The notes beneath the pieces were generated by a model. The model saw only the letters and a list, made by a program, of their open reading frames with translations. It had not been told where the DNA came from and searched no databases. Made by a program: the position numbers and the translations under genes. DNA of 64,000 nt from Eledone cirrhosa (taxonomy: Eukaryota). The stretch spans positions 182,032,001-182,096,000 of the forward strand of contig OZ024742.1 of assembly GCA_964016885.1 (NCBI GenBank). The letters are read 5' to 3'. Position 1 is the stretch's first letter. Each line of letters begins with the position of its first letter. Positions 1-51,244 of this stretch are shown one piece after another.

Positions 1-3000
1 GCTGCGACATCTAAAACTGTTTCATGTATGGCTTTATACTCATACCGCTTCATGACGAGGCCTAACGATTTCAGCACCCTGCACAGGTCACGGGAACTGT
101 TTCACCAGTTTGCAGTTGACATGGCTGCAAAGATGGAGTCGGAGAGACTGTGCTTCATAAAATTGAATCAGAAGCAGCTGCGCTCAGACTCCTACATCCA
201 TTTGCGTGACGGCATCAGGAATGACACTAACCTCCGGAACATCGGCAAAATGTGCATTCTTCCCTCAACATATACGGGGGGGGGCACATGCACGAGCGAA
301 CACAGGACGCTATGACGTTCGTTCGGCATTATGGGCGCCCCGATTTATTCATCACGTTTACGTGTAACCCCAAGTGGGTTGAGGTTACGCGGGAACTTAT
401 CCCAGGGCAGCAGTATTTCCATGGGCATGATATTATTGCCAGGGTTTTCAGGCAGAAGCTGGTTAAGCTAATTGATCTAATAAAAAAAGGGAAGGTTTTC
501 GGGCCTGTTAGGTGCCACATGTATACTGTTGAGTGGCAAAAGAGAGGGTTGCCACACGCGCACATTTTGGTTTGGTTGGTCACCAAAATAGACCCTACAG
601 TTCTTGATGACGTCATCGCAGCGGAAATACCGGACCCCTTTGTTGACCGGCAGCTGTACGACATTGTGAAGGTACACATGGTGCACGGTCCGTGCGGTCC
701 CGGTTTTCAAATGTTCTCCTCATGCCACAAGGACCAAGTGTGCAACACTAAACGATACCCAAAGAGGTTTGTTGAGGAGACCCAGACCGCCGGCGACGGA
801 TACCCACTGTACAGCCGAAGGCGGCCTGAGAACGGTGGATTCACTATGACGTTACGGGGTCATCAAGTTGATAATAGGTGGGTGGTCCCGTACTGTACAT
901 TTCTGATGAAAACTTTCAACGATCATATACATGTGGAGTTCTGTCATTCAGTGAAGTCGATAAAGTACATGTGGAAATATGTTAACAAGGGTTCTGACGC
1001 TGCCATGTTCGGCCTTCAAAACGACAATAGCAGGGACGAGGTCTCGGAGTACTTAGCAGGTCGATATATCAGCAGTGGTGAAGCTTTTTGGCGGATATTC
1101 GGGTTTCCACTTCACCAAAGACACCCCGCCATCATACAACTAGCGGTTTATTTGGAAAACGGCCAGCGGGCTTACTTTACTGAACAGATTGCTGCTCATT
1201 TGGCGGCCAATCCAAAAGAAACAACTTTGGCTGTTTTTTTTACGCTTTGCCAACTTGACACATTTGCAAAAAACACTTTCATATCCTCAGGTCCCGTCCT
1301 ACTACGTGCGGTCAACACTTGGGTGCGTAGGAAGTCAGGTCAAGATGTTGAAGGACATCCTGGTGTCAAGTTTGACAGTTGTCTAGGAAGAGTGTACACT
1401 GTACCTCCCAACCAGCATGAGTGTTTTCACCTGCGCCTTCTCCTCCATGAGGTTTTTGGCCCACAAAGCTTTCGAGACATAAGAACTGTTGACGGTGGAT
1501 TATGTGATACTTTCCGGGAAGCCTGCTTTAGGCGTGGCCTTTTGGAGGATGATTCACAATGGGGTGCCACTATGGCAGAGGGCATTTTGTTGAAATCTCC
1601 TAAACTAAGATCGCTTTTCGATATTCTACTCCTATGGTGCGACTTGGGTGATCCGGCCTCTTTATGGCTTAGCTACAAAGATTACATGTCTGAAGATTTC
1701 CTGCGTCACGCTCAGTTGCTAAACCCATCGATGGAGGTCGGGTACAGTGATCTCATTTACAACAGGGCGCTGCTTGAAATCGAAGATACTGTTCTCGATA
1801 TGGGGGGTAGTGCGTTGGCGGTGTATGGCCTATCTTCAACAAACCGGGAAGGCGGAAACACTCTGTCTTCGGATTTGCTGCGTGAGACATCTTATAATGT
1901 TGACGAGCTTGCCCAGTACATAGCGGAGAGTGAGCCAAAACTCCTTCCAGAACAGAAATTCGCTTACAACTCGGTTGTTAATTCTGTCCGGAGCAAAGCT
2001 GGGAGGGGGGGGGGCGGGTTCCTGGACACTCCTGGGGGACTGGGAAAACTTTTGTCACCAAATTAATATTAGCTGAGATTAGGCGAACAGAAGGCATTGC
2101 CTTAGCTGGGCATCATCTGGAATTGCGGCTACTTTGTCGCCGGGCGGCAGGACAGCTCACTCCTATTTCAAGCTCCCGCTTGACTTAGCGAAGACTGAGA
2201 CCCCCACTTGCAACATCAGTACGAGCTCCGATCAGGCAGAAGTGTTCAGACGATGGAAGCTTGAGACGAATGCACGATGGCCCACATAGGTGCTCTTGAG
2301 GCGCTAGATAGAACTCTGAGAGACATCAAAGACTCTACGGCTCCCATGGGAGGCATAACACTTCTTCTTTCAGGGGACTTCAGGCAAACGCTTCCCGTTA
2401 TTCACAAGGGGACTAGAGCTGATGCAGTACGTGCGTGTCTTAAGTCATCCGCATTGTGGCCTCTGGTGAAGACTCTGAAACTTCACACTAACATGCGTGC
2501 TCATATGCGAGGTGATATCACATCAGCAGCATTTTCTCACACCCTCCTTGCACTTGGCGATGGCAAAACGCCCGGGGATGAAAAGGGTAATATTGCCATC
2601 GACTCACTTTGTACCGTTGTTAGTACGCCTTCTGATCTCAGGGATGCAGTGTTCCCAGATCTCAAAGCAAATTATCAGAATATGGATTGGCTTACCCAAA
2701 GGGCTATTCTGGCCCCGAGGAATAAAACTATTAACCATATTAATGATCAAATGCTAAAATTAATTCCTGGGGATGGCTACGTATATAAGTCTATTGATAG
2801 AACTCCTGACCCCGAGGACGTCATCAACTATCCAATAGAGGTACTAAATTCCTTTGAGCCCCCCGGATTACCCCACACATTTTGAAACTTAAAGTTGGTG
2901 CCTCTATAATGCTCATTCGAAATTTGGTTCCGCCGAAACAATGCAATGGCACACGTTTGGTCGTTAAGTCCTTAGCTCCCAATCTGATTGAGGCCACGAT

Positions 3001-4106
3001 AATCATAGGGTGCGGTCGGGGCAAGGTTGTGCTTATACCGAGGATGCATCTTTTCCCATCAGGAGCAGAACTACCTTTCACATTTCGGAGGACCCAGTTC
3101 CCGGTCAGGCCATGCTTCGCAATGTCAATTAACAAAGCGCAGGGGCAAACACTGTCTGTCGCAGGAATATATTTGAGGGAGCCGTGTTTCTCTCATGGTC
3201 AACTTTACGTTGGCTGCTCGCGTGTCGGCAGCAAGAATGATGATTTCGCGTTCGTTCCGCAAGGAAAAACAAAAAACATAGCGTACAAGGAGGTTTTATA
3301 GGATTACCTCGATTCCTTTTTTATCTTTTTATTTTTTGCCTTTTCGTGCGTACTTTCTAAGTAGGTTAACCTTTACTGCAGTGCACTGGACACTCCCCAC
3401 CATCGGCCGTACAAAGGCTGATTCTCGCGGCGTTACAAAGCTTCATTGCAACTCCGACCCTACTCAAATATCAGCTGTTGCTCCTCACCAACCCCCGTTT
3501 GGTGGGCCTCGGAGGACCGTGGAGAGGTTAGTATTTCACCTCCGTACGACTCTCAAAGGGTGAACAATGTTTTAATGACGGAATTTACATTTTTAGGCGG
3601 TTCCCTGCAATTACTTCACACTTCAACACCTGGCCTCCGCTCAGCTCTATTTCCCTCCCTCCGTCGGCACAGCAGCAGGCTCATCTTCTACGTCCGACGT
3701 ACATGATGCACCAACCATACAATGACACCTATTCCTCTTTTTTGGTTGTCATAATTCGACAATGTTTTCAGGCTCCTGTTTGCGGTTCCCTCAATCCATC
3801 CCCTCCCCCGTTAAAACATGTCATGTAGAACAACTCCATCGCAGCTCTGTTGTTCGGCTGGCATCGTCTACGCGCGTGTTGCGCAAGTACTGTGAAACAA
3901 TAAATTTCAACACTTCTTTGCACAGAGATAATATCAAGAGGCGAAACTACAATTGTCACTGCTGGCGCAGCTCCTGTTTCGGCAGTTCAGGTTTGCAATT
4001 TATTCAACCAGTGCCTGGCAGACAAAAAAGTGCTGCCATAAAATGGGTGGTGCAACCTAACTTTGGTAACTTTCTGACCCCGAGCAACGCCGGGCTTTAA
4101 TGCTAG
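1..4106 (+). mobile_element. Helitron (rolling-circle transposon), 5' end outside window, decayed
   Basis: Rep/Hel coding remnants. Canonical 3' end: hairpin CCCGAGCAACGCCGGG (4079-4094), then CTAG (4103-4106) followed by T, abutting a TA/TG microsatellite. Confidence 0.95.
28..3301 (+). pseudogene. Helitron RepHel (HUH Rep + PIF1-like helicase), split by several frameshifts
   Basis: Rep motifs RPDLFITFTCNPKW, EWQKRGLPHAHIL (HUH) and KYMWKYVNKGSD. Helicase motifs FLDTPGGLGK (damaged Walker A), GDFRQTLPV, RAILAPRN, CNGTRL, QFPVRPCFAMSINKAQGQT and FSHGQLYVGCSRV, spread over ORFs 28-315, 252-2066, 2277-2885 and 2882-3301. Confidence 0.93.
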
Positions 4107-5819: not shown

Positions 5820-6266
5820 TTAAACTCCGCCAACTGCAGACTGCGCATCAACATGAGATATTTTTCTCCACAAAGTTCGATCACCAACAGCAGAGTTTAA
5901 AGAGCAAAGATCAATTCCAGTACATAGGTTGACATTATCAGGCCATCGTTTTGGCTGTCGGCCTCTGCTTCTCTTACCAACCAACCTTCCTTCCAGGTAT
6001 AACCTATTCATACCACGAGTTGATCTTTTTATATGACCGTATAGTTTGAGTACTCTTGACTTGACAATTGATGTAATTGGTCTAAGTTTGTTAATGTTGA
6101 GCAGCTCACTGATACAGATACGGTCGCTGAGCCGCTTGCCAGTGATAAGTCTCATGATGTGGTTCTGGAATGTAGAAAGCTTCTGAAGTGAGCTTGTCGT
6201 CCAATTAACACAGTGAAGATAATATACAACTGGTAGTATGTAAGTATCGAAGATCTTAGCCTTCAC
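5820..6266 (-). mobile_element. RTE-like LINE ORF2 C-terminal fragment
   Basis: IFDTYILPVVYY...WT, RVLKLYGHIKR, LEGRLVGKRSRGRQPKRW...DRTLWRK: typical RTE C-terminus. Confidence 0.85.
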
Positions 6267-6557
6267 ATGATAGGAAACTAGTTTTGATGTTTTCTACCCG
6301 ATTTTTACTTGTGTTTTGTTGATTTTACACACTATTGGATGGCCGTGGATTCTCCTGATTTCCTCTGCCATTTGACGAGTTTTCTCTTGTTTTTCCTTAT
6401 GCAGGGTATCGAAAAATTACTTTCCTCACTAAGCAAGTTTAGTGAGGTTGCTGGTATAGTTGCTGAGGACCCGGCCATGTGATATGTTGTACTGGATTAC
6501 ATATTGCCAGTAGCACCCGAGAGTCACTGAATACATATATACATAGGAACATACTTG

Positions 6558-10847: not shown

Positions 10848-10905
<58 letters not shown>

Positions 10906-10915
10906 AACCAGTAAG

Positions 10916-11009
10916 ACCCCGACAGCTGAGCTCAAGCCGTTTCGACGGCTAATTCTGGACTAAATGAAAATTTATCCTGGTATTTAAATAGCCGATCTTC
11001 TCAAGGGGT
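10916..11009 (-). ncRNA. Hammerhead ribozyme, inverted copy of 14051-14144
   Basis: Reverse complement of the 3' pLTR HHR. Confidence 0.75.
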
Positions 11010-11421
11010 AATTCCATATATGGTCAAAGTGATTGTCAAAAATCAGTAGTAATTCTGTGGTTGCAAATTAGTAGGGGAGATGGTGGCTAAACCTGCCAGT
11101 AGGAGAAAGAGGGGAGGGGGTGGAGTAGACCCAATCAAGCGTTGGTAGTGCCAGCTACAGCTGGGCATGAGGTCATAGAAGATACAGGGGAGGGGGAGGG
11201 GGAGGAAGTCGGAACGGTAGGTAGAACAATGGGGGGTAGAAATATATAGGAAAGAAAAGAAAAAATACTGAGAGTGAAGAAAAGCAAATAAGTGTAAAGA
11301 AAAAAAGTAAAGTAAATTAAATTCTACGACCTAGGTCTCAGGCTATTGTAAGGCTAGAATAAAATAAAGAAAGAAAGAAAGAAGTAAATAAATAAATAAA
11401 TAAAGAAATAACCTAGACCGC

Positions 11422-12936
11422 GTGATACCAAAAGTCAAGCAACACACCCGACTTAGCCTATGGATCAACACCCAGGAAGTAATCTCCTGGTTCAGCAATA
11501 TGGAGGATAAACGAGAAACTAAATTCATACAGTTCGACATAGAGAGCTACTATGCTTCAATCACCTTACCGCTACTTACTGCCGCCTTGGACTTCGCCGA
11601 AACACTTGTGCCCATCACCGACCAGGAAAGAAAGATCATCCTCCACGCCAGGAAGACAGTCTTACTCTTTGACGACTCTAAATGGATAAAAAGAGCTCCC
11701 GACTCACCCTTCGACGTCAGCATGGGCGCCACGGATTCGGCGGAGGTCACAGATCTTATAGGATTATTCCTAATAGCCAAACTCACTGATATGTTTCCTG
11801 CATTCGGTGGTGGATTGTACCGTGATGATGGGCTCCTTACCCTTAAAGGGTACAACCCCAGTAGTACAGATCGAGTCCGGAAACAATTAATCAGATTCTT
11901 CCGCGACTGGGGATTTAAAATAACCCTACAAACGTACCTGACCCGAGTAAACTTCCTGGACGTGACCCTCGACCTCGAAAACGACCTGTACTACCCATAC
12001 AGGAAACCTAATGACAATCTGCACTACATCCACCGCCGATCAAACCATCCTAGGAACATCACAAACAACCTGGTCAAAAACATCTCCCTCCGCATATCCC
12101 GTTTGTCAGCTAATGAGCGGATATTCGATGAACATGCGCCTTATTACAACCAGGCCCTCAAGCGGAGTGGTTTCCGGGAGGAAATATCCTACTGTCCAGC
12201 TCCCATTAGCGGAACCAGCAGGAGACACCGCCGCTCACGCAATGTAACATGGTTCAATCCTCCCCACAACGCACAGGTGACAACTCCCATCGGGAAACTA
12301 TTCTTTAGGCTCATTGAAAAACACTTCCCATTACAACACCGCTACCACAACATAATTAACAAAAATACCATCAAACTCTCTTACAGCACTACACCAAACT
12401 TCGCACAAAACATCGTCTCCTCTAACAACAAAAAACTCAACCCCGATGGCAGAAATAACCTAAATAGCAGTGGAGAACCGACCAGGAGGTGTAACTGCCC
12501 GGATAGATCTATTTGCCCACTTGACAATAGATGCAGAAACCGTAATGTGATCTACCAGTGCAACGTGAGGACGGATACCTCCAACAAAGCCTATATAGGA
12601 CTTACCGCATGTGACTTCAAGACCCGGCTATACCAACATAGACATACCTTCCGAAACCCGACCCGGCGTCACGCCACTACACTTTCGGGCCACATATGGG
12701 ACCTCAAGGACAACAACATCACCTATGATCTCACTTGGAGATTACTGTCCAGAGCCAATTCTTACACGGGAGGACGCCGTCCGTGCAATTTATGCTCGGA
12801 GGAAACTTTACAAATGCTGTTTTCGACGGACCAACTCCTAAACAAGAAAGATGAACTGGTCACTGCATGTAAACATAGATTGCGTAGGACTTACCTCGCC
12901 CTCAAACCCCATAATGACCCGGGGGGGGGGGGGTAG
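11422..12936 (+). CDS. PLE reverse transcriptase + C-terminal GIY-YIG endonuclease (5'-truncated; GTG is not a true start)
   Basis: RT motifs FIQFDIESYY, DVSMGATDSAEV, LYRDDGL and VNFLDVTL; WFNPP; linker CNCPDRSICPLDNRC (CxCx5Cx5C); NVIYQC...AYIGLT (GIY-YIG); CNLCSEE...LLNKKDEL..CKH. Uninterrupted 504 codons. Confidence 0.92.
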   Translation: MIPKVKQHTRLSLWINTQEVISWFSNMEDKRETKFIQFDIESYYASITLPLLTAALDFAETLVPITDQERKIILHARKTVLLFDDSKWIKRAPDSPFDVSMGATDSAEVTDLIGLFLIAKLTDMFPAFGGGLYRDDGLLTLKGYNPSSTDRVRKQLIRFFRDWGFKITLQTYLTRVNFLDVTLDLENDLYYPYRKPNDNLHYIHRRSNHPRNITNNLVKNISLRISRLSANERIFDEHAPYYNQALKRSGFREEISYCPAPISGTSRRHRRSRNVTWFNPPHNAQVTTPIGKLFFRLIEKHFPLQHRYHNIINKNTIKLSYSTTPNFAQNIVSSNNKKLNPDGRNNLNSSGEPTRRCNCPDRSICPLDNRCRNRNVIYQCNVRTDTSNKAYIGLTACDFKTRLYQHRHTFRNPTRRHATTLSGHIWDLKDNNITYDLTWRLLSRANSYTGGRRPCNLCSEETLQMLFSTDQLLNKKDELVTACKHRLRRTYLALKPHNDPGGGG

Positions 12937-14050
12937 ACTAGGGCTATAACACCCCACTTGCCGATTTTGCAATGGGTAACCCCTGCTTGCCAAGGAAGAC
13001 GTAAGATCTTCTTTGTATTCTTTTATCGCTTCCTTTATTTCCTTCCCCCCTCTCTCCTTAGTCCTTCTACCCCAGCTCTTCTCCTTTGTCGGCGTCTTTT
13101 CTCGCCCACCCGAGGCTGCCCTTTGGCCCCATGTGGCCTTAGTACCCCCACCACCCCTCCCCTAGTCTATGATAGATTTGGCGGACTCCGCCCTTTATAG
13201 CAGTTGGCTTAGACCCCGGATACTTGCCCCCTTTTTCCGACCGCTCCCACTATTCTCTGTGCCCTCTATATTTCTTAGTGGCACTTATGCCTTATTTTTT
13301 CGTTTCAGTATTTCTAGCTTCGCTTTTCTTCTGGGCGGGGTGGATTCTGAATTTATTTCTCCGTATTCTACCTTTATTTCGTACGAACTTTCATGTAGCT
13401 TGTTTTAGATCTTTTAGAGTTAGCATTAGTATATATTTTTCTCGGGACTCAGAATTATTATCTCGTACAAGTTCACTTTGCTGCACTGGGTCGTTGCTGG
13501 CCCGGGATGGAAACCTTTATTGTTTATTTCGTGGTAGTCTCTTTAGTATTTTGGCCCCTTTTGTTGACCCGTCACCGTATCATTTACGTACTTATACCTC
13601 TTAAAAGGGTCCTTGCCTATTTCGTCCCACCTAGTTCTTTTACTTATTTCGTTATTTCTTTATTTATTTATTTCTTTACTTCTTTCTTTCTTTCTTTATT
13701 TTATTCTAGCCTTACAATAGCCTGAGACCTAGGTCGTAGAATTTAATTTACTTTACTTTTTTCTTTACACTTATTTGCTTTTCTTCACTCTCAGTATTTT
13801 TTCTTTTCTTTCCTATATATTTCTACCTCCCATTGTTCTACCTACCGTTCCGACTTCCTCCCCCCCCCTCCCCTGTATCTTCTTTGACCTCATGCCCAGC
13901 TGTAGCTGGCACTACCAACGCTTGATTGGGTCTACTCCACCCCCTCCCCTCTTTCTCCTACTGGCAGGTTTAGCCACCATCTCCCCTACTAATTTGCAAC
14001 CACAGAATTACTACTGATTTTTGACAATCACATTGACCATATATGGAATT

Positions 14051-14144
14051 ACCCCTTGAGAAGATCGGCTATTTAAATACCAGGATAAATTTTCATTTAG
14101 TCCAGAATTAGCCGTCGAAACGGCTTGAGCTCAGCTGTCGGGGT
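14051..14144 (+). ncRNA. Type I hammerhead ribozyme with U3-A8 core variant (family A)
   Basis: Stem I ACCCC/GGGGT; core TTGAGAA (14056-62); stem II GA(T)CGGCTA/TAGCCGTC; GAAA 14117-20; stem III ACGGC..TGAGCTCA..GCTGT; cleavage triplet GTC 14137-39. Confidence 0.78.
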
Positions 14145-14235
14145 CTTACTGGTTCCTATTACCCACTCTACTACCTCAAGTATTGAGTACTTTGGTGCGT
14201 TATGGTCCACCTGGTTCCTTACCACATTTCCTTCG

Positions 14236-14281
<46 letters not shown>

Positions 14282-14442: not shown

Positions 14443-14445
14443 GAA

Positions 14446-15388
14446 ATATGAAATATAAGAATCAAAGAACTGTTCAAAACATTATTGTGCTTACAGCTGT
14501 TTCCTCCAAACCGAGGTTTGGATTCTTCGGAGCAATTTATTAATGCATGGACAGTTATATGACCTCCTTTTCAGCCGAGAGACATACCGATACATATTCA
14601 AACATTGATACATATTCAAACATTGTGGGTCAACATTCATTACAGAATTTAGAGTGGCAGTACACACTTCGAGATTACATTTATATTAAGAGGTACAATC
14701 AAAAATCAAAATACAGGTTAAAATACAACATGAAGATAAGCGGTTATATAGTGCAAATTTTATATGTGTGGCACGCATGTGCGTCTTGTTTATATAGTGT
14801 GGCAGAGAGATATGTGTGGTAGAGGCACTTAGGTAGGTAAACAAGAGTGCCTCTACCACACATATCTCTCTGCCACACTATATAAACAAGACGCACATGC
14901 GTGCCACACATATAACATTTGCACTATATAACCGCTTATCTTCATGTTGTATTTTAACCTGTATTTTGATTTTTGATTGTACCTCTTAATATAAATGTAA
15001 TCTCGAAGTGTGTACTGCCACTCTAAATTCTGTAATGAATGTTGACCCACAATGTTTGAATATGTATCAATGTTTGAATATGTATCGGTATGTCTCTCGG
15101 CTGAAAAGGAGGTCATATAACTGTCCATGCATTAATAAATTGCTCCGAAGAATCCAAACCTCGGTTTGGAGGAAACAGCTGTAAGCACAATAATGTTTTG
15201 AACAGTTCTTTGATTCTTATATTTCATATAACTGCTCTGTAAATCATCTGATGTTTTTACATTGAGCTACTTAACTTACTGGTAATAAGGTAGTAATACA
15301 TTACTGCCTACCACTATTTAGGGTGTGTGTAAAATACTTATAACTGCATAAGGTTTTGTATTTACATAACCATAAATAGTATAACTAA

Positions 15389-18690: not shown

Positions 18691-18693
<3 letters not shown>

Positions 18694-18840
18694 AGAAAGT
18701 ATGATCCCGGCGGCAGAGCTCAAGCCGTTTCGACGGCTATTTCTGGACTATGCCGTCGGGCTCATACTTTTTACTACTCCAAGTATTGAGTACTTTGGTG
18801 CGTTATGGTCCATCTGGTTCCTTACCACAACTCCTTCGTT
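18691..18840 (+). mobile_element. Short family A terminus with 5' inversion
   Basis: Inverted GAGCTCAAGCCGTTTCGACGGCTA segment joined to the direct 3' end ...CCTTCGT-(TA)n. Confidence 0.85.
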
Positions 18841-19532: not shown

Positions 19533-19533
<1 letters not shown>

Positions 19534-19655
19534 ACAAAGAAAGTGTGGTAAGAAACCAGGTGGACCATAACGCACCAGAGTACTCGAAACTTAGGGTAAT
19601 ACTGCTGGGTTAGTTCGGATCTAGCTGTCGAAACGGGGGTCGTGACTCTTTTCCT
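19533..19655 (-). mobile_element. Family A-related subfamily terminus with inversion (also 26832-26968, 31648-31801)
   Basis: GTGGTAAGAAACCAGGTGGACCATAACGCACC joined to inverted TTCGGATCTAGCTGTCGAAACGG. Confidence 0.8.
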
Positions 19656-20012: not shown

Positions 20013-20313
20013 AACGAAGGAAATGTGGTAAGGAACCAGGTGGACCATAACGAACCAAAGTACTCAATACTTAGGGTAGTAGAGTGGGTAATAGGAACGA
20101 GTAGGACCCCGACGGCTGAGCTCAAACCGTTTCGACGGCTAATTCTGGACTAAATATATATATATATATATAACGAAGGAAATGTGGTAAGGAACCAGGT
20201 GGACCATAACGGACCAAAGTACTCAATACTTAGGGTAGTAGAGTGGGTAATAGGAACGAGTAGGACCCCGACGGCTGAGCTCAAACCGTTTCGACGGCTA
20301 ATTCTGGACTAAA
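20013..20313 (-). mobile_element. Two near-identical tandem family A termini (20013-20154, 20172-20313) separated by (TA)n
   Basis: Each matches the reverse complement of about 14095-14236. Confidence 0.9.
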
Positions 20314-25530: not shown

Positions 25531-25866
25531 AATTAAGTTAAAAATGTACATCCACATATGTATACTGAAATACTAGTATGCATATGAATACACACACGTG
25601 TAGGTAAATATTGCTGATGAGATGTAACAACATCGAAACTAGTCCAATATTCCTTGTCTGGCTTTCTGGAGAATAGAGGAAAGGTGTTTCCTCAAAAACC
25701 AGTATGACTCTAAAAACCGGTTTGTCTGTGTGTTTACATACAGAATAGCTGGACACTCACAGTAAAGTGACCAGTGAAAAACTCGGTACATCTACATATG
25801 TACACGTGTGTGTATTCATATGCATACTAGTATTTCAGTATACATATGTGGATGTACATTTTTAAC

Positions 25867-26790: not shown

Positions 26791-26835
<45 letters not shown>

Positions 26836-26965
26836 ATGGAGGCGGTAAAAACCAGTTAAATCATTACTCACCAGAATACTCGATAATTGGAGTGGGTAAT
26901 ATGAAAAATTCGTTCGGATCTAGCTGTTGAAACGGCCGGAGCTCATCCGTTGGGGTTCCAAATTG

Positions 26966-27021
<56 letters not shown>

Positions 27022-31635: not shown

Positions 31636-31802
31636 ATATATATATATAAACAAAGAAAGGGTGGTAAGAAACCATGTAGACCATAACGCACCAGAGTACT
31701 TGATACTTAGGGTAGTAGCGGGGGTAATAGGAAAAGAGTTATTTCGGATCTAGCTGTCGAAACGGCCGGAGCTCATCCGTTGGGGTACTAACTCTTTTCC
31801 TG

Positions 31803-31867
<65 letters not shown>

Positions 31868-32385: not shown

Positions 32386-32574
32386 AGGAACCAGTAAGAC
32401 CCCGACGACTGAGCTCAAGCCGTTTCGAGGGCTAATTCTCAGAATTAGCCGTCGAAACGGCTTGAGCTCAGCCGTCGGGGTCTTACTGGTTCCTATTACC
32501 CACTCTACTACCCCAAGTATTGAGTACTTTGGTGCGTTATGGTCCACCTGGTTCCTTACCACATTTCCTTCGTT
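32386..32574 (+). mobile_element. Family A terminus with 5' snap-back inversion
   Basis: Inverted AGGAACC...AATTCT directly joined to CAGAATTAGCC...CCTTCGT-(TA)n. Confidence 0.9.
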
Positions 32575-51051: not shown

Positions 51052-51053
<2 letters not shown>

Positions 51054-51240
51054 CGAAGGAAATGTGGTAAGGAACCAGGTGGACCATAACGCACCAAAGT
51101 ACTCAATACTTGAGGTAGTAGAGTGGGTAATAGGAACCAGTAAGACCCCGACAGCTGAGCTCAAGCCGTTTCGACGGCTAATTCTGGACCAAGAATTAGC
51201 CGTCGAAACGGCTTGAGCTCAGCTGTCGGGGTCTTACTGG

Positions 51241-51244
<4 letters not shown>
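51052..51244 (-). mobile_element. Family A terminus with snap-back inversion
   Basis: Reverse complement of 14100-14236 joined to direct 14104-14155. Confidence 0.9.

What the first reader, a model, noticed from the sequence alone, without database searches (positions are those of the whole stretch)
14063..14116. Candidate core promoter inside the ribozyme's stem II loop, coinciding with the 5' ends of all short copies
Seen: the stem II loop contains TATTTAAA (14070-77) and TTAGTC (14097-14102), with the A at 14099 lying 29 nt downstream. The short family A copies (18691, 20013, 20172, 32386, 51052) begin at positions equivalent to 14095-14104, not at the predicted cleavage site (14139). The sister subfamily (19533, 26832, 31648) begins at the equivalent place (TTCGGATCTAGCTG). 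Established: about 30 nt is the standard TATA-Inr spacing, and PLE promoters lie in the pLTR. Inference: transcripts started here carry only the 3' half of the HHR, so the intact ribozyme forms only on read-through RNA or in trans. This would be a split promoter/ribozyme switch that also spawns about 140-nt non-autonomous copies.
Basis: partly seen in the sequence, partly recalled or inferred. Interest (0 to 1): 0.8.

Follow-up and report, generated by a model that had tools for sequence, protein, structure and literature searches.

The report
Transposon RNA starts inside its ribozyme
A jumping gene has left thousands of tiny copies, half or more of which stop within a few letters of one spot inside its predicted self-cutting RNA fold, likely because its RNA begins there, so the genome itself would record both where the RNA starts and where the ribozyme cuts.

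Summary
The motifs are there, and the clustering is real genome-wide. The element is a Hydra-like Penelope retroelement with a hammerhead (U3-A8 variant, long loop II). Of 90 position-ordered copies, 55 begin at 14095-14105 and none at 14023-14094; an unselected 1 Mb gives 26 of 52 arms at 14094-14106. Arms ending at A14099 carry an unexplained extra G (7 of 8, against 7 of 28 elsewhere), the known trace of a copied cap. A14099 is therefore likely the capped RNA start. The TATA is doubtful: older subfamilies degrade it and the sister family lacks it yet stops at the same A; only the initiator is kept. Most short copies are two head-to-head cDNAs, likely primed 61 and 141 nt inside the RNA and running off its 5' end: abortive products rather than a SINE. 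New here: a minor class stops exactly at G14140, the predicted cleavage site, with an added A/T instead of G, which suggests that the ribozyme cuts in vivo. No RNA data were available; the switch itself is untested.

The parts
14099..14099 (+). Likely main capped transcription start (+1); hard 5' edge of short copies
   Evidence: 6,308 genome matches with a non-T letter before this A (includes long copies of the TCAGT variant); mode of arm ends in unselected 1 Mb; extra G
14097..14102 (+). Initiator-like TTAGTC (TCAGTC, TTAGTT, TCAGTT in other subfamilies)
   Evidence: Drosophila consensus TCAGTY from PMC5580651
14093..14098 (+). Second initiator-like TCATTT; A14095 is a likely minor start
   Evidence: ends at 14095-14096; none of 100 arms listed runs past 14094
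14070..14077 (+). TATA-like TATTTAAA at -29, overlapping the end of stem II; not conserved
14037..14046 (+). CCATATATGG, kept or nearly kept in both families (CArG-like, label recalled; may instead be the stem I extension)
14051..14144 (+). Type I hammerhead: stem I 14051-55/14140-44, core UUGAGAA 14056-62 (U3-A8), stem II 14063-74/14106-16, GAAA 14117-20, stem III 14120-25/14133-38
   Evidence: fold; 87% of cells paired, 2 pairs with compensatory change in 9 sequences
14139..14140 (+). Predicted cleavage site (GUC|G); minor class of copies stops at G14140
14110..14125 (+). Predicted alternative hairpin AGCCGU-CGAA-ACGGCU that hides the GAAA core in RNA started at +1
14116..14120 (+). CGAAA at +18 to +22: ribozyme core at the place of the Drosophila MTE motif CGANC
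   Evidence: sequence and PMC5580651; function untested
14157..14159 (+). Likely first internal reverse-transcription start (outer end of inverted arms)
14237..14239 (+). Likely second internal start (end of the 80-nt tail); in full units the sequence runs on into the 5' UTR and ORF
   Evidence: 72 of 90 copies end CCTTCGT+(TA)n exactly
11413..12936 (+). 5'-truncated RT + GIY-YIG ORF of the element (full ORF about 720 aa in other copies)
   Evidence: no Pfam match
10901..11412 (-). Inverted arm of the main insertion (equivalent of 14159 to 13651)
18692..18839 (.). Short family A insertion: inverted arm to 14098, tail arm from about 14134
20014..20153 (-). Short family A copy, 140 nt, starts at 14095-14096
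20173..20312 (-). Tandem twin of the previous copy
32387..32573 (+). Short two-arm insertion (arms end at 14104 and 14103)
51053..51243 (-). Short two-arm insertion (arms end at about 14100 and 14104)
19533..19654 (.). Sister-family short insertion; one arm reaches about -15 to -17
26832..26968 (.). Sister-family short insertion, arm starts at +2
31649..31806 (.). Sister-family short insertion, arm starts at about +3

Best explanation
The short copies of this Penelope-like element stop at a sharp edge inside the long loop of its predicted hammerhead, and that edge, A14099, is likely the capped start of the element's RNA, set by an initiator rather than by the TATA-like box. An RNA begun there holds only the 3' half of the ribozyme, then two internal priming sites (+61, +141) and, in head-to-tail units, the 5' UTR and ORF (AUG at +232). 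Inferred: the RT primes from both nicked strands of a (TA)n target at these two sites, both cDNAs run off the nearby 5' end and often copy the cap, and they are joined head to head with some trimming, which gives the 140-200 nt copies and the spread to 14105. Inferred: read-through RNA holds the whole ribozyme and gives the long copies; some of it is cut after C14139, and the cut product is also copied, leaving a minor class that stops at G14140. Shown: end positions, junction letters, conservation, unit layout. Predicted: folds. Untested: transcription, cap, cleavage, promoter elements.
For: Edge: 55 of 90 tail arms at 14095-14105, 0 at 14023-14094, 10 longer, 25 further down; 54 of 67 inverted arms at 14095-14105; 26 of 52 arms at 14094-14106 and 0 at 14023-14080 in an unselected 1 Mb; contig depth in run X5 rises from 0.13-0.20 million (14030-14089) to 3.2-3.9 million (14110-14139). 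Sister family: 30 of 30 arms that reach +3 end between -3 and +3 by ungapped extension (L196 may run further). Extra G: 7 of 8 unexplained letters at 14099, 10 of 13 at the three A starts, 7 of 28 elsewhere, Fisher p=0.003; 5 of 13 against 1 of 21 TA-abutting junctions, p=0.02 (hand count); 408 A/T-flanked G/C junctions at 14099 against 18 at 14105. About a third of SVA insertions carry such a G, attributed to the cap (PMC3287187). Single spacer between two arms: G/C in 5 of 6 at 14099, A/T in 10 of 11 at 14140, p=0.005 (hand counts). Four haplotypes each have long and short copies. The inverted arm often reaches further 5' than the tail arm and both can carry the extra letter, so both are copied from RNA. 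L277 is a whole unit starting at 14100. Cleavage trace: of the first 50 of 163 tiny palindromic inserts, 19 have both arms at 14140 with foreign letters between, 22 are ambiguous C/G-run joins, 5 have one arm at 14140 and the other 1 nt off, 4 reach 14137 or further. Two adjacent internal RT starts on both strands are shown in vitro for another PLE (PMC11167929).
Against: No RNA evidence: the run search gave contigs only and none of 4 RNA or RNA-guess runs had a contig on the stretch. Raw letters before A14099 are G 48, C 44, A 8 in the first 100 rows; the C rows seen were partner-arm letters, inserted repeats or the TCAGT variant, but only 30 were read. At the control site 14105 G also leads C (10 to 8; 6 to 1 after pure TA), so only the frequency, not the G:C ratio, separates the sites. 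One search holds duplicates and some mutated long copies, and n is small. The unselected 1 Mb shows 0 of 52 arms at 14139-14142: the cleaved class is a few percent at most. Of 15 near-full ORF copies with a 5' pLTR, 13 run past +1, 1 stops at 14100, 1 at 14187: simple capped mRNA is not the usual template of long copies. The alignment fold does not recover the hammerhead, and two long sister copies do not fold into it as lowest energy. Several older copies have C3 opposite A8, which should weaken the core. The alternative hairpin has probability 0.65 or 0.32 depending on the 3' end folded.
Confidence: 0.75

Rival explanations
1. The edge is an uncapped end or a stall: RT halts at the hairpin in loop II, or a nuclease trims the RNA there, and the RT adds C by itself.
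For: A hairpin 14083-14103 is predicted in loop II; many ends lie at 14103-14105; G leads C at the control site too.
Against: The modal end lies inside the hairpin arm; the sister's loop hairpin ends about 5 nt before +1 yet its edge keeps the initiator register; RT passes the stronger stems II and III first; at 14140 the added letter is A/T, so C is not the default; the edge sits on an initiator consensus.
Confidence: 0.14
2. The start is at A14099 as in the best explanation, but in the young subfamily the TATA-like box does help to set it, as the first reader proposed (a variant, not exclusive of the best explanation).
For: T at -29 is within the usual -32 to -28 range, one mismatch to TATAWR; TATTTAAATA in 44 of 47 long copies of the -29/-30 type; family A lacks the downstream CGG that the TATA-less sister has at +27 to +29.
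Against: 9 of 9 long copies of the older CC haplotypes have TATTCA.. at -31; 4 of 4 long sister copies have none; both stop at the same A; the first letters are needed for stem II.
Confidence: 0.3
3. The short copies descend from one or a few truncated masters (a SINE-like family), or the edge reflects TA microhomology with the target.
For: TA lies at 14098-14099; some junctions recur, such as AATTC|AGTCC; C24 holds many like sister matches.
Against: 67 of 90 copies join arm to arm, not to the target; junctions differ copy by copy; recurring junctions occur in both arm arrangements; short and long copies share four haplotypes; a second family shows the same edge.
Confidence: 0.05
4. The edge is a 3' splice site (pyrimidines + TTTAG|TCC), as Penelope has an intron ending at its ribozyme.
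For: Both families read YYYAG here; the D. virilis intron ends at helix I (PMC4209133).
Against: Arms keep the AG and often TTT before it; no common upstream exon or leader precedes 14101 in the junctions read.
Confidence: 0.04

Closest known systems
Hydra clade of Penelope-like elements (PMC8557442: passages, section 11, supplement part 2 of 59)
   Same: C-terminal GIY-YIG, DKT, RW-basic motif, CxCX5C linker, CxxC and CxH, (TA)n target, inverted 5' copy, tail, hammerhead in the pLTR.
   Different: Unit is 3.56 kb (listed Hydra families are mostly under 3 kb); listed Hydra hammerheads have CUGANGA and loops of 3-10 nt, this one has U3-A8 and a loop of over 30 nt holding the likely start site; tail is about 80 nt.
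PAc Poseidon element of the green anole (PMC11167929: parts 1-2 of 4 and passages)
   Same: Both strands cut and extended; two adjacent internal RT starts that define the tail; AT-rich target; hammerhead upstream of the starts.
   Different: No start site was mapped there and no reads began or ended at the cleavage site; here genomic ends mark both a likely capped start and the cleavage site.
Drosophila virilis Penelope promoter (PMC2377424 and PMC4209133: passages and parts 1-2)
   Same: Start in the upstream pLTR of a partial tandem; TATA-less promoter with initiator and downstream element.
   Different: There the start lies 46 bp before a 75-bp intron that ends at helix I, so (my reading of the two papers together) upstream of the whole ribozyme; here it splits the ribozyme.
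Adineta vaga Penelope pLTRs (PMC3846280: passages)
   Same: Putative TATA + Inr noted in a pLTR; head-to-head inverted pLTRs and tail.
   Different: Motifs were not tied to copy ends; self-priming on an antisense template was proposed, whereas the arm pattern here favours two cDNAs from sense RNA.
Cap-derived G and twin priming of L1/SVA (PMC3287187, PMC11702581: passages)
   Same: Extra G at full-length 5' junctions; second cDNA primed from the other DNA end.
   Different: In L1 the two cDNAs cover adjacent parts of the RNA; here they overlap and both run to the 5' end.
Retrozymes (10.64898/2026.07.22.740005 part 1 of 5; PMC12029980 passages)
   Same: Short non-coding relatives of retroelements linked to hammerheads.
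   Different: Retrozymes carry whole ribozymes in tandem units or LTRs, with the NbRZ1 start upstream of its ribozyme; these copies carry half a ribozyme and are dispersed.

Membership tests
PLE, Hydra clade | Single ORF, RT then C-terminal GIY-YIG | tested here: met
   720-aa ORF read by eye: YRDD, YIGLT..R; Pfam gave no match
PLE, Hydra clade | DKT, RWK, CxCX5C linker, CxxC and CxH, no CCHH | tested here: met
   SDKTGN, RLRWR (R for K), CNCPDRSIC, CNLC, CKH
PLE, Hydra clade | (TA)n target, partial tandem, inverted copy, tail | tested here: met
PLE, Hydra clade | Generally under 3 kb with a canonical hammerhead | tested here: not met
   unit 3,558 nt; U3-A8 core and long loop II against the table
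PLE, Hydra clade | Placement in an RT tree | not tested
   no reference proteins were fetched
Type I hammerhead | Three stems round the core, GUC triplet | tested here: met
   Rfam did not list it among the 150 of 210 rows shown
Type I hammerhead | Core C3-G8 or a paired variant | tested here: inconclusive
   U3-A8 in the young and sister families, a variant reported in PMC4209133; C3 opposite A8 in several older copies
Type I hammerhead | Self-cleavage | not testable with these tools
   indirect only: ends at G14140
TATA-Inr core promoter | TATAWR at -32 to -28, conserved | tested here: not met
   one mismatch at -29; degraded or absent in relatives
TATA-Inr core promoter | Initiator at the start | tested here: met
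   TYAGTY in all long copies compared, TCAGTY in some
TATA-Inr core promoter | Capped RNA 5' ends at +1 | not testable with these tools
   no raw RNA reads; extra G is indirect
Non-LTR retrozyme | Tandem units each with a whole hammerhead | tested here: not met
   short copies hold the 3' half only
SINE-like non-autonomous family | Spread from own masters | tested here: inconclusive
   haplotypes shared with long copies, varied junctions; no tree built; an internal promoter is not excluded

The most novel reading that the evidence does not exclude
The element starts its mRNA in the middle of its own ribozyme, so capped mRNA cannot cut itself while read-through RNA (or the two halves brought together from the two pLTRs) does, and the catalytic CGAAA doubles as a downstream promoter contact; the genome holds a readable fossil record of capped and ribozyme-cut RNA ends, the first in vivo trace that an animal PLE hammerhead cleaves and that one RNA templates both arms of an insertion.
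Probability: 0.3. Interest if true: 0.8.

Novelty: new variant of a known kind. Interest (0 to 1): 0.62.

Why it matters
What PLE hammerheads do is stated to be unclear (PMC8557442), and RNA-seq showed no ends at the cut site in the one element studied in vitro (PMC11167929). Here thousands of insertions act as a built-in 5'-end map: one class marks a likely capped start, another the predicted cut. That makes start site, cleavage and the origin of inverted pLTRs testable from sequence alone in any genome with an abundant PLE, and gives exact positions for bench tests. It also explains a large class of tiny repeats (about 30 insertions per Mb in the 1 Mb sampled) as abortive products of one element. 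Searches of the open library found no paper that places a PLE start site inside a hammerhead; subscription papers and most supplements were not seen.

Tried and rejected
RNA evidence: one run search gave 10 runs, all contigs; laying X1-X4 gave no contig, which proves nothing. X9 and X10 had 3 contigs each, too few to judge other organisms. Rfam listed no hammerhead at this locus in the rows shown; Pfam missed the ORF. The protein search for distant families in the genome returned only 97-100% identical copies, so no third family was tested. The first DNA search is biased to long matches and was not used for the histogram. RNAalifold gave another structure, so the hammerhead pairs were counted by name; its shuffles do not allow for kinship. 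One row was on the wrong strand and is ignored. Foldback of one cDNA was rejected because the inverted arm often runs further 5' than the tail arm and cannot supply the tail. A second start upstream of the ribozyme was looked for among 67 long arms: ends thin out with distance and show no clear G or purine pattern, apart from 14032-14033. The scan's earlier notes held nothing. Scripts up to cut the reference at 14230, so 3' ends printed as 14230 mean 'reaches the tail'; the true end is 14236-14239. Dropped from the count: 14 of 48 junctions (5 at 14101 where G is templated, 6 at 14096-14097, 3 with partner-arm letters); two tandem triplets counted once.

Full report
Context. The window lies in a 3.0-Gb animal genome rich in (TA)n (organism not determined). 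The finding sits near the 3' end of a Penelope-like element: a truncated RT + GIY-YIG ORF at 11413-12936, a 1.3-kb 3' region ending at 14236-14239, and an inverted copy of 14159-13651 in front, all within (TA)n. Near-full copies elsewhere are head-to-tail units of 3,558 nt in which the tail runs straight into the 5' UTR and a 720-aa ORF with DKT, RWR, CxCX5C, CxxC and CxH motifs, the marks of the Hydra clade (PMC8557442). The family is young: the 150 best EN matches are 97-100% identical.

The ribozyme. 14040-14161 folds as a three-way type I hammerhead with a long loop II (z -0.29, so stability is ordinary). The core is U3-A8, a variant reported in Schistosoma PLEs (PMC4209133). Across 9 sequences of two families 87% of cells pair and two stem II pairs change on both sides; the alignment fold and two sister copies do not recover it unaided.

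The observation. The motifs are where stated but are common by chance. The clustering is the real signal. A 35-mer just below the cleavage site has 7,124 exact matches. I read the first 90 by position: 55 start at 14095-14105, none at 14023-14094, 10 are longer, 25 start at 14108-14140. 67 of the 90 have an inverted arm that begins at 14159, and 54 of these arms stop at 14095-14105 too. In 100 evenly spaced 10-kb stretches, 52 arms (about 30 insertions by my grouping) gave 26 ends at 14094-14106, mode 14099, one at 14087 and none at 14023-14080. Contig depth in run X5 rises about twentyfold across the same place (rough, and possibly the source sample). Among 2,914 arm-to-arm joins reaching 14099, none of the first 100 arms passes 14094.

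Is the edge a capped start? Reverse transcription of a cap leaves an extra G, seen in about a third of SVA insertions (PMC3287187). By script, letters explained by neither template, partner arm nor TA target were G in 7 of 8 arms ending at A14099, 10 of 13 at A14095/14099/14104, and 7 of 28 elsewhere (small, with some duplicates). By hand, 5 of 13 TA-abutting junctions at 14099 had an extra G against 1 of 21 at four other positions. Genome-wide, A/T-flanked G/C junctions number 408 at 14099 and 18 at 14105, a ratio of 23 where TA-abutting ends differ by 13 to 5. Against: G also leads C at 14105, and raw letters before A14099 are G 48, C 44, A 8 in the first 100 rows, the C rows read being partner letters, inserted repeats or a TCAGT variant. 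One whole unit, L277, begins at 14100. No RNA reads could be had.

Which promoter elements? The initiator TYAGTY is kept everywhere and matches the Drosophila TCAGTY exactly in some subfamilies. The TATA is not: 9 of 9 long copies of the older haplotypes read TATTCA.. at -31, and 4 of 4 long sister copies read GATTCCC, GATATCC or GGTCCC there, yet 30 of 30 sister arms that reach +3 end within 3 nt of the same A. The sister has CGAAA at +18-22 and CGG at +27-29, close to the revised Drosophila MTE (CGANC, CGG); family A has CGAAA but TTG. This complementary pattern rests on two families and a fly consensus.

What the short copies are. Both arms are antisense cDNAs read from fixed outer ends (14157-14159 and 14237-14239), as for the two internal RT starts shown for PAc (PMC11167929). 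Either arm can be the long one, the inverted arm often reaches further 5', and both can carry the extra letter, so both copy RNA; a single foldback does not fit. The sites lie 61 and 141 nt from +1, so priming at the 5' copy of the pLTR gives short products at once. Short and long copies share four haplotypes: they arise again in each subfamily. Whether the template is the full mRNA or a transcript from a lone 3' pLTR cannot be told from the copies.

A trace of cleavage. Five of the 90 tail arms end at G14140 against 19 over the 34 positions before it (p=3e-4), and all 3 inverted arms ending there pair with such a tail arm. Of 469 matches with a non-C before G14140, about 53 of the first 100 are true ends. 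Of 163 tiny palindromic inserts, the first 50 show 19 with both arms at 14140 and foreign letters between, 22 ambiguous C/G-run joins, 5 with one arm 1 nt off and 4 reaching 14137 or beyond. The single spacer letter is A/T in 10 of 11 here and G/C in 5 of 6 at 14099: two kinds of RNA end. The class is rare (0 of 52 arms), and a stall at the G run is not excluded.

The switch. RNA from +1 lacks core 1 and the 5' strands of stems I and II; it is predicted to hide GAAA in another hairpin (0.65 or 0.32 by 3' end), whereas read-through RNA forms stems I-III (0.75-0.96), and the two halves are predicted to pair. 13 of 15 near-full copies with a 5' pLTR run past +1, so long copies come mostly from read-through, circular or switched templates. 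This is the least tested part.

Literature seen: PMC11167929 parts 1-2 of 4 and passages; PMC4209133 parts 1-2 of 4; PMC8557442 passages, section 11, supplement search and part 2 of 59; passages of PMC2377424, PMC3846280, PMC3287187, PMC11702581, PMC12029980, PMC5580651; part 1 of 5 of 10.64898/2026.07.22.740005 (its supplements not seen). A pLTR promoter, a pLTR hammerhead, the tail and inverted copies are known. A start inside the ribozyme and a genomic record of the cut were not found in searches; unread supplements and closed journals may hold them. The CArG label is recalled.

Verdict. Observation largely right; start site likely right (0.75); TATA doubtful; short copies are likely abortive twin cDNAs; cleavage trace is a new, moderately supported result. 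New variant of a known kind, interest 0.62.

Noticed in passing
window 25596-25667 +: A second, unrelated hammerhead with a canonical CTGATGA core and short palindromic stem III; Rfam HH9 34.6 bits, below the gathering score.
   Followed up: no
window 231-3301 +: Helitron Rep/helicase-like ORFs in three frames; PF14214 match on the first.
   Followed up: partly
window about 14445-15230: A near-perfect inverted repeat of about 390 bp per arm right after the element's (TA)n flank (read); possibly a MITE or another head-to-head insertion.
   Followed up: no
window 14031-14033; L004, L021, L024: Four arms in three loci end here, both arms in L021, at an initiator-like TCAC(A/T)TT: a possible minor start upstream of the whole ribozyme; from a biased sample.
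   Followed up: partly
window 14037-14046: CCATATATGG kept across families while flanks diverge; a factor site or the stem I extension that pairs with the first priming site.
   Followed up: partly
window 14202; L277:3220: An upstream AUG at +104 opens a 13-codon frame in the tail before the ORF AUG at +232.
   Followed up: no
G000:C24: About 25 of 84 sister matches lie on one 31-Mb contig, most with the same AATT junction: likely local duplication of one insertion.
   Followed up: no
L183, L185, L196, L217, L231, window 19533: Some sister arms run 8-17 nt past +1, more than seen in family A; a more dispersed start in the TATA-less family is possible.
   Followed up: partly
window 5820-6293 -: A 157-aa frame resembling the C-terminal end of a LINE ORF2 (resemblance recalled); no Pfam match.
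   Followed up: no
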